Source of the DNA: Escherichia coli
Lineage (GTDB): Bacteria; Pseudomonadota; Gammaproteobacteria; Enterobacterales; Enterobacteriaceae
NCBI RefSeq assembly: GCF_030013595.1
Contig: NZ_CP122768.1
Reading direction: 5' to 3' (one strand)
Length of the DNA: 64,000 nucleotides
A program made the position numbers and the translations under genes. Positions 40,446-43,512 of the stretch are shown in pieces. Numbering within the stretch: the stretch's first letter is position 1; each line of letters begins with the position of its first letter. The notes below the pieces were generated by a model. It was given only the letters and a program-made list of their open reading frames with translations, made no database searches and was not told where the DNA came from.

Positions 40446-41960
40446 TTATCTGTTTATATACCACTGATAAAACTCTGTCGCTTTCATTGGTTTTGCATAT
40501 AAGTATCCCTGAACTAATGTCACGTTATTATGAATAAGATATTCTGCCTGGTGAGGAGTACTGACACCTTCTGCAATCGTTATCAAATTTAGTCGATTAC
40601 TCAGCTTAATAATAATATCTAAAACTGGCGTTTCGTCTTCCGCTGTAGTGAGTGTGTCTATAAAGCTTTTATCTATTTTAAGATAATCAACAGACAACTT
40701 TTGTAGAAGGCCAAGTGAACAATATCCCGTGCCAAAATCATCAACTGCAAATTCATAGCCATGGATCCTTAATTCATTTATTTTCTGTAATGCAAGATCA
40801 GTATCTTCAACCAGATTGCGTTCGGTAATCTCAAGGACAATGTTAAATTTATCAGATATTGCATTTTTAATATGTAAAACATCAGCAGCAAAATCAGGAT
40901 GTGCAAGATGTTCCGCGGCAATATTTATCCCAAGGTGAAACGGTTTTTTCACTTTCCAGCTTTGTACATCCTGAATAATCAGTTCAAAGAGATGTTTAGT
41001 TAACGGTATTATTAAATTTTCCTCTTCTGCAGCGCGGATAAAAACTACCGGAGATATATTTTTACCATCTTCGCGTTGCCAGCGCATTAACGCTTCAACC
41101 CCCAGACACGCTTTGGTTGTCGTGTCGCACACTGGTTGATAATGCACAGAAAATTCTCCGGATGACATTCCTTTTTTAATTTCTTCTGCCAGCGACATTT
41201 TCCGTGACATCCAGTGCTGCCATAAGAAATAGAGAATAAAAGAAAGAATAATAGATAACGGCAAAATATAAAGCACATTGCTAATGATATAGGGATATAA
41301 CGAAATCATCGGCGTAGTAACTGTAAGACGAGCCTGACTGATCGCAGAATTAAAATCTCTTTTTAACATATATAACCTGTCATTATTATTTACACCACTA
41401 ATAATTGCAGGCCCTTCAGTAAAACGAAGAGAAAATGAATCATCATTCTCATCATCAAGAACATCCATTAGATCATAGATATATCGTGACTCTACAATAC
41501 TAAAAGCTGTCATATCATTCCCTATTGGCATAAGGAACACTATTGCTGTTTTACCTGGCACAAAACTTGTACCGCTAATTGATACTATACGTGATTCTTT
41601 ATTTTTATTGTGAAAGCTCGTACCGTAAACATCGTTAACATTCATTTTTTTGAAACCGCTAACTGAAGAACATATTTGGAAATTATTTTCTATAAGACCC
41701 GTTGTTCGAACATAGGGAGTCAATGCTCCGTTAACAATCAATTGTTCCAGGATATCTTTGCAGGGTTTCATCACCAGAATAGAAGTAAGCTTTGTCGTAT
41801 GTTTGACAATTTGCGTAACATTATCAAGCTGTTTTAACAGAATACCGGCGGTAATTGTCGTATCTCGATTCATTTGAAATATTGACATAGCAAACGATAG
41901 TAACACCCCCAGAATGCCTGGTATTATAATGAGTACAAACATTTTTTTGTTGAATACCAT
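40446..41960 (-). CDS. CSS-motif EAL-domain c-di-GMP phosphodiesterase
   Basis: Periplasmic domain with Cys-Ser-Ser motif (QICSSVSGF) between two TM segments; cytoplasmic EAL domain (EALMRW..., EITERN, DDFGTGYCSL, KIDKSFI). ORF extends to 42056; start chosen at MVFNKKMFVLIII. By context possibly the vmpA/pdeT-type gene described beside dgcT in EHEC (recalled, not verified). Confidence 0.8.
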   Translation of the reverse strand: MVFNKKMFVLIIIPGILGVLLSFAMSIFQMNRDTTITAGILLKQLDNVTQIVKHTTKLTSILVMKPCKDILEQLIVNGALTPYVRTTGLIENNFQICSSVSGFKKMNVNDVYGTSFHNKNKESRIVSISGTSFVPGKTAIVFLMPIGNDMTAFSIVESRYIYDLMDVLDDENDDSFSLRFTEGPAIISGVNNNDRLYMLKRDFNSAISQARLTVTTPMISLYPYIISNVLYILPLSIILSFILYFLWQHWMSRKMSLAEEIKKGMSSGEFSVHYQPVCDTTTKACLGVEALMRWQREDGKNISPVVFIRAAEEENLIIPLTKHLFELIIQDVQSWKVKKPFHLGINIAAEHLAHPDFAADVLHIKNAISDKFNIVLEITERNLVEDTDLALQKINELRIHGYEFAVDDFGTGYCSLGLLQKLSVDYLKIDKSFIDTLTTAEDETPVLDIIIKLSNRLNLITIAEGVSTPHQAEYLIHNNVTLVQGYLYAKPMKATEFYQWYINR

Positions 41961-42153
41961 ACATGTTTCCCCACGCATCAGGGTGATGCAACCTAAGAAA
42001 TTATAGTACAATTGCCAGTAAAAGCGGGTGATAGCAGACTGATCAATGATAAGCATTTAAGATCATATAGTACTATGATATTTCTGAAAATTGTTACGCA
42101 TGTCTGCGAATAGCTATTTAGCGCTTACCAAAATCACCCGCTAAAATGCCGCT

Positions 42154-43512
42154 TTATGGTGACTCACAAAAATTCACCACATCCCTCACAACCACCTTAT
42201 TACGCCCGGTCTCTTTCGCCTCGTATAGTGCGTTATCAGCCAGTCGATAGATCTCATTCGGGTTTAACGCATTTTCCTGAGTCACAACAGCGCCAATACT
42301 AATCGTCACTTTTTGTGGTATGGCGTATTCAGGATTATCACCAGTTAAACGCTCAACATTTTCCCGAATCCTTTCCGCTAAAGCTTTCGCACGTTCAGTA
42401 TCGATGTCCGTCAGCAAGACGCCAAACTCTTCGCCGCCGACGCGCGCAAAAAGGTCATCTGGCCGTATGCTTTTCCCAATGATACTCACCACTGTTTTTA
42501 TCACCTGATCGCCAACCGGATGCCCCCAGGTGTCGTTGACTTTTTTGAAGTGGTCGATATCCATAATCATGACGCAATAAGGCGTTTTTTTGGCCGATGC
42601 TGATTGAACTGTCAGTTCATTAAAAAAATAATTTCTGTTAAATATATTGGTTAAGGAATCGCGATGTGCAATGTCCTTTGTTACTCGTAGCGCACTGAAT
42701 ATATGGCACATAAATATTACCATAACGGTTAACTTACTGACTACTTCAATAGTGCGACTAATATACCAAATGGACAGGCTATACCTGCTCATAAATAAAA
42801 GAGAGACATTGTACAGTACGGCACAAAAAGCAATCACCGTCACTCCATTCCAGATATCACAGCGTAAACCATTAAAGTATAGATTAACTGAAAGCAAGGT
42901 TAACCACATGAAAATCATTATGGTAACATATGATGTTTTCCAAACCACCTGATCATTTTCATTGGTTAACTCGGCAATGTGTAAATTGTAGCTCTCATAA
43001 TGACTAGAAAGTATGTGAGCAACTATCGGCCCCCCAACAACAAAAAACAAACTTATGCACAAAGTCATTTTTTTGGAAAATAAATTGCGCTGTTTTGTGT
43101 TTTCACTAACTTTATTCACCAATGCCAGAAATATTAATATGCACAAACTCATCTGACGAAACAAATAATAGATTGCAATGTCATTTTGAACAACACTGCT
43201 TGTCAAACGCCCCTCAATAATTTGCTGAATGATAATGACGGTTTTAACAAAGTAAATCAAACAACTCAGAAAAGCCAAACTAAGTATACAGTTTGAAAAT
43301 TGCCTACGGTCATAAATGAAATACAACTGCATAAAAATAAATGCAACAGTATCGATAAAAAATAAAGCAATCATTACCATCAGATAGGTTGATCGTGGAA
43401 CAACTTCCTCAACGCCTGGCTGATTAAACCAACTATTCACCAAAACCAAAGCAAGCCCAAACAATAAGCTCACTAATACAGTACTACTAATTCTCAAATA
43501 GTCTTTTTCCAT
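42154..43512 (-). CDS. dgcT: Diguanylate cyclase DgcT (YcdT), MASE-type membrane domain plus GGDEF (452 aa)
   Basis: ORF 42154..43635 trimmed to MEKDYLRISSTVLVSLLFG...; GGDEF domain with RVGGEEFGVLL and NIFNRNYF. Confidence 0.85.
   Translation of the reverse strand: MEKDYLRISSTVLVSLLFGLALVLVNSWFNQPGVEEVVPRSTYLMVMIALFFIDTVAFIFMQLYFIYDRRQFSNCILSLAFLSCLIYFVKTVIIIQQIIEGRLTSSVVQNDIAIYYLFRQMSLCILIFLALVNKVSENTKQRNLFSKKMTLCISLFFVVGGPIVAHILSSHYESYNLHIAELTNENDQVVWKTSYVTIMIFMWLTLLSVNLYFNGLRCDIWNGVTVIAFCAVLYNVSLLFMSRYSLSIWYISRTIEVVSKLTVMVIFMCHIFSALRVTKDIAHRDSLTNIFNRNYFFNELTVQSASAKKTPYCVMIMDIDHFKKVNDTWGHPVGDQVIKTVVSIIGKSIRPDDLFARVGGEEFGVLLTDIDTERAKALAERIRENVERLTGDNPEYAIPQKVTISIGAVVTQENALNPNEIYRLADNALYEAKETGRNKVVVRDVVNFCESP

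What the first reader, a model, noticed from the sequence alone, without database searches (positions are those of the whole stretch)
40446..43512. Island-borne CSS-EAL phosphodiesterase placed immediately beside the core diguanylate cyclase dgcT
A c-di-GMP degrading enzyme with a periplasmic redox-sensitive Cys-Ser-Ser sensor domain sits adjacent to, and on the same strand as, a c-di-GMP synthesising enzyme, with the PGA operon (c-di-GMP dependent) directly beyond. The arrangement creates a potential local source-sink pair tuning PGA, yet PGA export is disrupted by IS10 in this strain.
Basis: partly seen in the sequence, partly recalled or inferred. Interest (0 to 1): 0.45.

Follow-up and report, generated by a model that had tools for sequence, protein, structure and literature searches.

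The report
Known PdeT phosphodiesterase next to dgcT
The gene beside the diguanylate cyclase dgcT is pdeT (vmpA), a c-di-GMP-degrading enzyme already described in E. coli O157:H7, and it travels with a 31.7-kb variable segment rather than with dgcT, so the arrangement is real but ordinary.

Summary
Window 40446-41960 (-) encodes a 504-aa TM–CSS–TM–EAL protein, and 42154-43512 (-) encodes MASE4-GGDEF DgcT. pgaABCD runs divergently from 44103, and pgaB is split by IS10 (47644-48972, 9-bp duplication).

The EAL gene is not new. It is pdeT/vmpA (Z1528 of EDL933), 97% identical in protein to the O157 allele. It has been named as the sixth CSS-domain phosphodiesterase of E. coli, and published work already draws it "immediately downstream of ycdT". 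Both periplasmic cysteines and every EAL catalytic residue are present.

It is the end gene of the OI-47 segment (window 10398-42142). K-12 has exactly this stretch replaced by IS3D, with no target duplication.

The "dedicated source–sink pair for PGA" reading is unproven, and comparison does not favour it:
- pdeT occurs in 412 of 5426 complete genomes, like grvA-fidL (410) and the island's fimbrial usher (400). dgcT occurs in about 4268.
- Seven homologue contexts in other Enterobacterales showed no neighbouring GGDEF gene or pga operon.
- Z1528 is reported as RpoS-dependent.

Verdict: already known, low interest.

The parts
40446..41960 (-). pdeT (vmpA) CDS, 504 aa. The open frame continues upstream to an ATG at 42056 (536 aa), which some RefSeq records annotate.
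   Evidence: RefSeq calls the 1515-bp CDS pdeT in strain MEW. It has 15/504 aa differences from an O157 allele.
41874..41942 (-). PdeT TM1 (about residues 7-29).
   Evidence: Hydropathy scan, (window-19 Kyte-Doolittle peak 2.6 over residues 1-30).
41295..41873 (-). Periplasmic CSS domain (about residues 30-222). It contains C67 (41762-41760) and C97-S98-S99 (41672-41664).
   Evidence: Pfam PF12792 E=1.9e-13. C67, C97, S98 and S99 are invariant in 28 homologues. The Cys-Cys spacing is 30 residues, against 31 for C75/C106 in K-12 PdeC.
41217..41294 (-). PdeT TM2 (about residues 223-248).
   Evidence: Hydropathy scan.
40476..41186 (-). EAL domain (about residues 259-495) with the full catalytic set.
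   Evidence: Pfam PF00563 E=1.4e-63. Best solved relative is PA3825-EAL, E=1.3e-44. Catalytic residues are invariant and positioned.
41961..42153 (-). 193-bp dgcT–pdeT spacer. No canonical intrinsic terminator. A long imperfect hairpin ends in CCCGCUUUU. A candidate -10 element CTATAAT lies at 42006-42000, about 33 nt of leader before the ATG.
   Evidence: no terminator-like site on the - strand in this spacer; z = -2.9. The promoter is read from the sequence and is inference. The spacer is 100% identical to O157.
42154..43512 (-). dgcT (ycdT), 452 aa, MASE4 + GGDEF. GGEEF is at residues 359-363 (42438-42424) and the RxxD I-site at residues 350-353 (42465-42454).
   Evidence: It has 15 aa differences from K-12 DgcT.
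43513..44102 (.). Divergent dgcT–pgaA control region, 33% G+C.
44103..46526 (+). pgaA, intact (807 aa).
46535..47643 (+). pgaB 5' part (codons 1-369 and two bases of codon 370).
47644..48972 (+). IS10 (annotated in RefSeq as an ISVsa5-family IS4-like element). The transposase is at 47751-48959 (+) and RNA-OUT at 47689-47758 (-). The outside end faces pgaB 5'. The 9-bp duplication GGTCTGGTT is at 47635-47643 and 48973-48981.
48973..49891 (+). pgaB 3' part.
49884..51624 (+). pgaC (49884-51209) and pgaD (51211-51624), both intact. PgaCD is the c-di-GMP-binding synthase.
   Evidence: The c-di-GMP role is taken from PMC8461298.
39027..40344 (+). grvA (ToxR-like wHTH regulator, 273 aa) and a fidL-like gene (163 aa). 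They are convergent with pdeT.
   Evidence: Pfam Trans_reg_C. The Sakai RefSeq record names them grvA and FidL-like. Supporting papers: PMC8565820, PMC10877973.
10398..42142 (.). OI-47-type variable segment (31,745 bp). It holds a fatty-acid/polyketide-like cluster, a two-partner secretion pair, a chaperone-usher fimbrial operon, an SDR gene, grvA-fidL and pdeT. In K-12 exactly this stretch is replaced by IS3D.
   Evidence: The island size and gene range z1528-z1556 are from PMC8565820.

Best explanation
The gene is pdeT (vmpA), the known sixth CSS-domain c-di-GMP phosphodiesterase of E. coli. It is the terminal gene of the OI-47 variable segment, which lies between the serX/ycdU side and the 3' end of dgcT.

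Shown here:
- pdeT is inherited as part of OI-47, not together with dgcT.

Taken from the literature:
- VmpA is described as a c-di-GMP phosphodiesterase, and its loss in O157:H7 is reported to lower motility and raise biofilm formation.
- Z1528 expression is RpoS-dependent in stationary phase.

Inferred by analogy with PdeC and PdeB:
- DsbA/DsbB-made disulfide C67–C97 holds the enzyme in a low-activity state.
- The reduced form is active and is clipped by DegP/DegQ.

Inferred from comparison:
- Its position beside dgcT and pga follows from where the segment ends. It is not a selected cyclase–phosphodiesterase operon.
- PdeT most likely drains c-di-GMP from the cellular pool or from targets not yet defined. 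PgaCD would be one of several possible beneficiaries.

In this strain any PGA output is blocked downstream anyway, because IS10 splits pgaB.
For: Identity:
- RefSeq names the orthologous CDS pdeT.
- The protein is 97.0% identical to the O157 allele.
- PMC5897775 lists PdeT/VmpA as an extra CSS-domain PDE.
- PMC4076661 and PMC8565820 place it in OI-47.

Architecture and catalytic residues.

Island membership:
- K-12 homology stops at window 10397 and 42143, with IS3D between and no 3-bp duplication.
- Genome counts out of 5426: pdeT 412, grvA-fidL 410, usher 400, ketoacyl synthase 381, dgcT about 4268.

No conserved cyclase partner:
- The closest non-E. coli homologues (51-56% identity) come from Enterobacter, Klebsiella, Citrobacter, Lelliottia and unnamed assemblies.
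- They sit in seven different contexts, none with a GGDEF gene or pga.
- tblastn with DgcT, PgaA and PgaC found nothing in those loci.

Separate regulation:
- Z1528 is 9-fold RpoS-dependent in EDL933 (PMC2907692).
- A 193-bp spacer carries a CTATAAT -10-like element.

Mechanism by analogy: PdeC/PdeB redox and proteolysis control (PMC5897775).
Against: - No experiment in this strain supports any of this. I could not read the primary VmpA paper (Branchu et al., PMID 23078901), so its findings come from its title and from citing papers.
- No canonical terminator separates dgcT from pdeT, so read-through co-transcription is possible.
- The spacer and both gene ends form a 377-bp tract without a single difference from O157, although the flanks differ by 1.6-3.4%. 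This could mean a conserved shared regulatory element.
- G+C is uniformly low (34-39%) across fidL, pdeT, dgcT and the pga control region, so the composition shows no island/core boundary at the dgcT end.
- The K-12 arrangement is a secondary deletion, so the adjacency may be old.
- This strain's PdeT carries a private C402Y change at a position that is Cys in the other 27 family members. Its effect is unknown.
Confidence: 0.8

Rival explanations
1. DgcT and PdeT form a dedicated local module. Both are inner-membrane enzymes, made from adjacent and possibly co-transcribed genes, and they set c-di-GMP in the immediate vicinity of PgaCD. DgcT would act as source and PdeT as a redox-gated sink. 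K-12-type strains would have lost the sink.
For: - The genes are adjacent on the same strand with a 193-bp gap and no canonical terminator.
- pgaABCD is divergent from dgcT, and PgaCD binds c-di-GMP (PMC8461298).
- ycdT has been suggested to act on PGA (PMC4287979).
- K-12 lost pdeT through an IS3-associated deletion.
- Low G+C runs continuously across both genes.
- A 377-bp substitution-free tract spans the junction when compared with O157.
Against: - About 90% of dgcT-bearing genomes lack pdeT, and pdeT counts match the other OI-47 genes.
- No GGDEF or pga neighbour was found in seven homologue contexts.
- Different regulators are reported: RpoS for Z1528, and very weak expression for ycdT (PMC4287979). 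CsrA control of ycdT is from my own recall of Jonas et al. 2008.
- The cyclase reported to control PgaD levels is YdeH/DgcZ, not DgcT.
- The substitution-free tract includes coding sequence with no synonymous changes, which fits local recombination as well as it fits selection.
Confidence: 0.13
2. PdeT belongs functionally to the adhesion and virulence programme of OI-47 (chaperone-usher fimbriae, two-partner secretion, GrvA/FidL). It would lower c-di-GMP to coordinate motility with island-encoded adhesins, as fimbria-linked EAL genes do in other systems. dgcT would be irrelevant.
For: - pdeT is co-inherited with grvA-fidL and the fimbrial operon.
- The Enterobacter hormaechei homologue lies between a chaperone-usher operon and a Trans_reg_C + FidL_like gene pair.
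- The Citrobacter homologue lies beside a giant invasin-like adhesin gene.
- The Klebsiella oxytoca homologue is about 8 kb from fimbrial genes.
- VmpA is reported to affect motility and biofilm (title of PMID 23078901).
Against: - Four of the seven homologue contexts show no adhesin genes.
- The Enterobacter regulator pair is not detectably similar in sequence to the window's GrvA/FidL (tblastn E>1e-5).
- pdeT is convergent with grvA-fidL, not in an operon with them.
- No data link PdeT to expression of the island's fimbriae.
Confidence: 0.25
3. In this particular strain the locus is decaying, and PdeT is functionally impaired by C402Y. The region carries other private lesions, so the gene pair would have no current role.
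For: - C402Y is private. The 99.9%-identical sister strain and O157 both have Cys, as do the other 27 of 28 aligned homologues.
- IS10 in pgaB is found in none of 5426 genomes.
- Single-base homopolymer deletions disrupt the SDR gene (37910) and a fimbrial gene (36544).
Against: - The ORF is intact and all catalytic and sensor residues are kept.
- Position 402 varies across the wider EAL family: Val in PA3825, Tyr in PdeC and His in PdeB at the aligned column.
- The homopolymer indels may be sequencing errors.
Confidence: 0.07

Closest known systems
PdeT / VmpA (Z1528) of E. coli O157:H7 EDL933, OI-47
   Same: It is the orthologue. Protein identity is 97.0% (489 of 504 residues), with the same length, the same neighbours (fidL-grvA on one side, dgcT-pgaABCD on the other) and an identical 193-bp upstream spacer.
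   Different: - There are 15 amino-acid differences, including the private C402Y.
- The host strain is not O157. Its nearest complete genomes are pig, gull and environmental isolates.
- pgaB is broken by IS10 only here.
PdeC (YjcC) and PdeB (YlaB) of E. coli K-12, the characterised CSS-domain phosphodiesterases
   Same: - Same architecture: TM1, CSS domain, TM2, EAL.
- The CSS motif aligns.
- The Cys pair spacing is 30 residues, against 31 for C75/C106 in PdeC.
- The EAL catalytic set is complete.
   Different: - Identity is only 27% to PdeC and 24% to PdeB, so it is a paralogue.
- It scores below the NCBIfam equivalog cut-off (312 versus 461 bits for NF007839).
- Redox and DegP/Q control have not been tested for PdeT (PMC5897775).
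PA3825 of Pseudomonas aeruginosa (EAL domain structures 4y8e/4y9o)
   Same: It is the best solved relative of the EAL domain (E=1.3e-44). All metal- and substrate-binding residues align.
   Different: It comes from a different genus, and only the EAL domain was solved. It gives no information on the sensor domain of PdeT.
Local DGC/PDE modules of E. coli (for example DgcM–PdeR for csgD, DgcC–PdeK for cellulose synthase; recalled from the Hengge-lab literature, not tested here)
   Same: A membrane cyclase and a phosphodiesterase are encoded near an exopolysaccharide synthase that binds c-di-GMP.
   Different: - No interaction data exist for DgcT–PdeT.
- The pair is absent from about 90% of dgcT-bearing genomes.
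- The pairing is not conserved outside E. coli.

Membership tests
CSS-domain c-di-GMP phosphodiesterases (PdeC type) | Periplasmic domain flanked by two transmembrane segments | tested here: met
   Hydropathy peaks at residues 1-30 and 221-248 flank the CSS-motif domain.
CSS-domain c-di-GMP phosphodiesterases (PdeC type) | Two conserved periplasmic cysteines, the second in a Cys-Ser-Ser motif | tested here: met
   C67 and C97-S98-S99 are invariant in 28 homologues. The CSS motif aligns with PdeC and PdeB, and the spacing is 30 versus 31 residues.
CSS-domain c-di-GMP phosphodiesterases (PdeC type) | Disulfide formation by DsbA/DsbB lowers activity, and the reduced form is processed by DegP/DegQ | not testable with these tools
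   Shown for PdeC and PdeB only (PMC5897775). For PdeT this is inference.
Catalytically competent EAL domains | EAL(x)R motif plus N, ExxE, DD, K, E and Q residues for metal, water and substrate binding | tested here: met
   E289-A-L-M-R293, N346, E377, E380, D407, D408, K428, E464 and Q484 are present. They align to PA3825-EAL and are invariant.
Catalytically competent EAL domains | Measured hydrolysis of c-di-GMP | not testable with these tools
   Reported for the O157 orthologue VmpA according to the title of PMID 23078901 and citing papers. That paper was not readable here.
PdeT/VmpA orthologue group (OI-47 of EHEC) | High sequence identity to Z1528 and the same chromosomal position (between fidL-grvA and dgcT) | tested here: met
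   97.0% aa and 96.6% nt identity to an O157 allele with identical synteny. RefSeq gives the gene name pdeT in strain MEW.
Diguanylate cyclase DgcT (YcdT) | MASE4 membrane domain, GGDEF domain with an intact GG(D/E)EF A-site and an RxxD I-site | tested here: met
   Pfam MASE4 and GGDEF. GGEEF is at residue 359 and RPDD at residue 350. The protein differs from K-12 DgcT at 15 of 452 residues.
Dedicated local DGC–PDE signalling module | Co-occurrence of the two genes across genomes | tested here: not met
   dgcT is in about 4268 genomes and pdeT in 412 of 5426. pdeT counts match the other OI-47 genes.
Dedicated local DGC–PDE signalling module | Conserved neighbourhood of the PDE with a cyclase or the target machinery in other taxa | tested here: not met
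   Seven contexts of 51-56%-identical homologues lack a GGDEF gene or pga.
Dedicated local DGC–PDE signalling module | Direct protein–protein interaction and target-specific phenotype | not testable with these tools
   No data were found in the searched literature.

The most novel reading that the evidence does not exclude
dgcT–pdeT is an old, co-regulated cyclase/phosphodiesterase pair that gates PgaCD locally, and the perfectly conserved spacer is a shared control element. Most E. coli lineages, K-12 included, would have lost the sink by rearrangements at the dgcT 3' end. PGA and DgcT regulation as studied in K-12 would then lack its natural antagonist.
Probability: 0.1. Interest if true: 0.45.

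Novelty: already known. Interest (0 to 1): 0.12.

Why it matters
It matters little beyond correct annotation. The gene should be labelled pdeT (vmpA), not a generic "EAL domain-containing protein", with its start at 41960.

Three modest points come out of the check:
- OI-47 and pdeT are more widely distributed than reviews state. Reviews call them exclusive to O157:H7 and O55:H7, with a report in O145:H28. Here they occur in about 7.6% of complete genomes, including pig, bird, primate and environmental isolates.
- The K-12 configuration is a clean IS3-associated deletion of the whole segment.
- The region downstream of dgcT is a rearrangement hot spot.

If the local-module idea were ever shown, it would add a redox-gated sink to PGA control. 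Nothing here makes that more likely than not.

Tried and rejected
- **Scan of genome contigs with a 28-sequence PdeT alignment.** The patterns chosen were the generic EAL motifs (A[VI]DDFGTG and KIDK[SIT]F[IV]D). The 80 loci returned were unrelated EAL proteins at 27-42% identity, so no PdeT orthologue was recovered. I used the look-up of encoding contigs on seven homologues instead.
- **Primary and comparative papers.** I could not read Branchu et al. (PMID 23078901), Povolotsky & Hengge 2016 (PMC4686209) or Hengge et al. 2016 (PMC4686207). None is held.
- **GrvA/FidL link.** I tested whether the Trans_reg_C + FidL_like pair next to the Enterobacter homologue is homologous to the window's GrvA/FidL. 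There was no tblastn hit at E<1e-5, so the resemblance is in domain architecture only.
- **Source strain.** I looked for it through the IS10::pgaB junction. No complete genome carries it.
- **Spacer conservation.** I considered the 100% conserved spacer as evidence of selection. The difference-free tract extends into both coding regions (41898-42275), and a second one covers the dgcT 5' end and leader (43189-43627). Recombination is therefore an equally good explanation.
- **The 536-aa ORF.** I considered it as the true product and rejected it in favour of 504 aa. The homologue N-termini align to M33, and a GGGGAA Shine-Dalgarno-like element lies 6-7 nt upstream of that ATG.
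Full report
**1. The observation**

The six-frame ORF list shows two adjacent ORFs on the - strand. One is 40446-42056 (536 aa from the first ATG). The other is 42154-43635, whose ATG at 43512 gives 452 aa.
- Pfam assigns the first a CSS-motif domain (PF12792, E=1.9e-13) and an EAL domain (PF00563, E=1.4e-63).
- Pfam assigns the second MASE4 (E=4.3e-69) and GGDEF (E=2.9e-50).
- RefSeq annotates the second as dgcT in every close match.
- pgaA starts divergently at 44103 and is followed by pgaB, pgaC and pgaD.

pgaB is interrupted after nucleotide 1109 by a 1329-bp element at 47644-48972.
- The element is flanked by the 9-bp repeat GGTCTGGTT and has IS10 ends and a 402-aa transposase ORF.
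- It has an Rfam RNA-OUT match at 47689-47758 on the - strand.
- By my reading of the IS10 ends, the outside end and pOUT face the 5' part of pgaB. No outward promoter therefore points at pgaB-3'/pgaCD.

**2. What the EAL gene is**

The gene is pdeT (vmpA).
- A megablast of 40300-43700 against 5426 complete E. coli genomes finds 382 genomes with the whole stretch. One RefSeq record names the CDS 'pdeT: cyclic di-3',5'-guanosine monophosphate phosphodiesterase PdeT'.
- The pdeT CDS alone is found in 412 genomes, most of the sampled rows being O157:H7, at 96.2-99.9% nucleotide identity.
- The window's protein differs from an O157 allele at 15 of 504 residues.

The literature already describes both the gene and its position.
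- Herbst et al. list PdeT/VmpA as the CSS-domain PDE that certain EHEC and EPEC strains have in addition to the five of K-12 (PMC5897775).
- Reviews place vmpA in O-island 47 (PMC4076661). They define OI-47 as 31,727 bp, z1528-z1556, also encoding GrvA (PMC8565820; PMC10877973).

**3. Anatomy**

The likely start is the ATG at 41960 (504 aa).
- It matches the pdeT-named RefSeq CDS length (1515 bp).
- It matches the N-termini of 27 homologues.
- It is preceded by GGGGAA 6-7 nt upstream.

Hydropathy gives TM1 within residues 1-30 and TM2 at 221-248. The CSS domain between them carries C67 and C97-S98-S99, which are invariant in 28 sequences. The spacing of 30 residues compares with C75/C106 (31 residues) in K-12 PdeC.

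The EAL domain has its full catalytic set: E289-A-L-M-R293, N346, E377, E380, D407, D408, K428, E464 and Q484.
- All of these are invariant in the family alignment.
- They align residue for residue with the solved PA3825 EAL domain (E=1.3e-44).

PdeT is a paralogue of the K-12 CSS-PDEs, not an orthologue. It is 27% identical to PdeC and 24% to PdeB. It scores below the NCBIfam equivalog cut-off (312 versus 461 bits).

DgcT has GGEEF at residue 359 and the RxxD I-site (RPDD) at residue 350.

**4. Is it 'island-borne', and how did it come to lie beside dgcT?**

Alignment with K-12 shows that homology stops at window 10397 on one side and 42143 on the other. In K-12, IS3D sits between these points, 10 bp past the dgcT stop codon.
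- The bases flanking IS3D in K-12 are TTT and GTG, so there is no 3-bp target duplication.
- K-12 therefore equals this window with 10398-42142 (31,745 bp) replaced by IS3D. That is the signature of an IS-associated deletion.
- K-12's ymdE pseudogene lies directly at the far junction next to ycdU, where this window has the full ACP S-malonyltransferase gene.

The same breakpoint (query position 444, which is window 42143) recurs in K-12-like and O104:H4-like genomes. One such genome shows only an IS3 remnant there plus a rearrangement.

B2-type genomes such as Nissle break 35-38 bp inside dgcT (window 42188-42191).
- They have a different DgcT C-terminus.
- Next comes a copy of the 179-bp repeat that follows serX in this window, and then an integrase-bearing island.

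So the stretch downstream of dgcT is a rearrangement hot spot. 'Island' here means 'absent from K-12', not 'recently inserted next to dgcT'.
- Divergence from O157 is similar inside the segment (grvA 97.1%, fidL 96.1%, pdeT 96.6%, chaperone 97.5%) and outside it (dgcT 98.4%, pgaA 97.7%). I read this as long residence in the species. That is inference.
- Base composition gives no boundary at the dgcT end: fidL 34%, pdeT 36%, dgcT 39%, and the dgcT-pgaA spacer 33% G+C.

**5. Does pdeT belong with dgcT or with the segment?**

Counts over the same 5426 genomes:

| Gene or region | Genomes with a match |
|---|---|
| pdeT | 412 |
| grvA-fidL | 410 |
| Fimbrial usher | 400 |
| Ketoacyl synthase near the far end | 381 |
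| dgcT | about 4268 |

pdeT is inherited with OI-47, and about 90% of dgcT-bearing genomes do without it.

Outside E. coli there is a gap in similarity, from the ≥90% cluster straight to 51-56% identity in Enterobacter, Klebsiella, Citrobacter, Lelliottia and Serratia. I inspected seven of these contexts.
- Enterobacter hormaechei: between a chaperone-usher operon and a Trans_reg_C + FidL_like pair, flanked by IS elements.
- Citrobacter: beside a roughly 2370-aa invasin-like adhesin gene and an H-NS-like gene.
- Klebsiella oxytoca: in plasmid-like mobile DNA about 8 kb from fimbrial genes.
- Four others: unrelated chromosomal neighbourhoods.

None has a GGDEF gene or a pga operon within 8-9 kb. 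tblastn with the window's DgcT, PgaA and PgaC found nothing in these loci. The Enterobacter regulator pair shares domain architecture but no detectable sequence similarity with GrvA/FidL.

**6. Transcription**

The dgcT stop and the pdeT start are 193 bp apart.
- The consensus scan finds no terminator-like site on the - strand in this spacer, and only a weak promoter-like match.
- Folding gives a long imperfect hairpin (GCGGGUGAU...AUCACCCGC followed by UUUU) with z = -2.9. This is not a canonical terminator.
- Downstream of the hairpin lies CTATAAT (42006-42000), about 33 nt of leader before the ATG.
- By my own recall of published σS promoter studies, a C at -13 is common in σS-dependent promoters.
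- Z1528 is 9-fold lower in an rpoS mutant of EDL933 in stationary phase (PMC2907692).

I infer that pdeT has its own promoter. Read-through from dgcT is not excluded.

The spacer is 100% identical to O157 and at least 99% identical in 361 of 388 genomes, whereas the pdeT CDS reaches 99% in only 10 of 412 genomes.
- The difference-free tract is 377 bp (41898-42275) and includes coding sequence on both sides.
- A second tract of 438 bp covers the dgcT 5' end and leader.
- With 227 differences in 8176 bp, such tracts are unexpected by chance. Recombination explains them as well as selection does.

**7. Mechanism**

Shown here: PdeT has an intact sensor and catalytic architecture.

From the literature:
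- VmpA is described as a c-di-GMP PDE.
- Loss of vmpA is reported to enhance biofilm and reduce motility (PMID 23078901 through; the primary paper could not be read).
- PgaCD is activated and stabilised by c-di-GMP, and the cyclase reported to control PgaD levels is YdeH/DgcZ (PMC8461298).
- ycdT is only 'suggested' to act on PGA and is very weakly expressed (PMC4287979).

By analogy with PdeC and PdeB (PMC5897775): a DsbA/DsbB-formed C67–C97 disulfide would keep PdeT in a low-activity state. The reduced form would be active and processed by DegP/DegQ.

A local DgcT–PdeT–PgaCD circuit is conceivable but has no specific support. In this strain the PGA pathway is broken at pgaB. By my own recall of Itoh et al. 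2008 and Little et al., PgaB is needed with PgaA for deacetylation-dependent export. Any such circuit would therefore have no polysaccharide output here.

**8. Verdict**

The arrangement is real and correctly read, but it is the published PdeT/VmpA–DgcT–pga configuration of OI-47-bearing E. coli. Novelty: already known. Interest is low.

What remains unexcluded is the local-module hypothesis, which I put at about 0.1.

Noticed in passing
window 40756 (pdeT codon 402): Private C402Y substitution in PdeT. The 99.9%-identical sister strain and O157 have Cys, and so do the other 27 of 28 aligned homologues. The position is five residues before the DDFGTG loop. PdeC has Tyr and PdeB has His at the aligned column, so the effect is unclear.
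   Followed up: partly
window 47644-48972: The IS10::pgaB insertion (9-bp duplication GGTCTGGTT) is found in none of 5426 complete E. coli genomes, so it is strain-specific. An ATG inside the IS10 inside end (48956) opens a frame that runs into the pgaB 3' part (311 aa). Such a product would lack the signal peptide.
   Followed up: partly
window 36544 and 37910: Relative to strain HCP5S3_I2, single-base deletions in homopolymers (C5→C4 and T8→T7) truncate a fimbrial protein gene (35395-36597 instead of about 36727) and split the SDR gene (37560-38350). These are either real pseudogenes or homopolymer sequencing errors.
   Followed up: partly
window 8145-8937: A 179-bp unit is repeated 4.4 times in tandem (99% matches) directly after tRNA-Ser(GGA) serX (8072-8159). 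In Nissle a copy of this unit abuts the altered 3' end of dgcT, next to an integrase-bearing island. The unit may therefore act as an island junction or att-like sequence.
   Followed up: partly
window 42143 and 42188-42191: There are two recurrent breakpoints downstream of or inside the dgcT 3' end across E. coli. The first is the IS3 junction 10 bp past the stop in K-12-like and O104:H4-like genomes. The second lies 35-38 bp inside dgcT in Nissle- and ST131-type genomes and gives a different DgcT C-terminus (...VVVKEAEILINRKDDE versus ...VVVRDVVNFCESP).
   Followed up: partly
window 41898-42275 and 43189-43627: Two tracts of 377 and 438 bp show no difference from O157, although the surrounding 8 kb differs by 2.8%. 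One spans the dgcT end, the spacer and the pdeT start. The other spans the dgcT 5' end and leader. Selection on regulatory sequence and local recombination were not distinguished.
   Followed up: partly
window 10398-42142 (OI-47-type segment): Reviews describe OI-47/grvA as exclusive to O157:H7 and O55:H7, with a report in O145:H28. Here the segment's genes occur in about 380-412 of 5426 complete genomes, including isolates from pigs, gulls, baboons, guinea fowl, chickens, fish, water and an O169:H41 strain.
   Followed up: partly
L007 8001-13097 (Enterobacter hormaechei CP169086.1): A 55%-identical PdeT homologue lies in an IS-flanked accessory region between a chaperone-usher fimbrial operon and a Trans_reg_C + FidL_like gene pair. 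The domain-level layout matches OI-47, but the regulators show no detectable sequence similarity.
   Followed up: partly
window 51678-51871 (+) and 2380-2471 (+): Two Rfam matches above gathering score were found. Ysr251 (192.8 bits) lies antisense to the phoH end next to pgaD. ES056 sRNA (119.7 bits) lies in the csgD upstream/leader region.
   Followed up: no
window 9070-10055: By the coordinates of the near-identical record, this is ycdU. There it is annotated as frameshifted, and the window has one extra T at 9618 relative to that strain. I did not check whether the window's ycdU frame is open.
   Followed up: no
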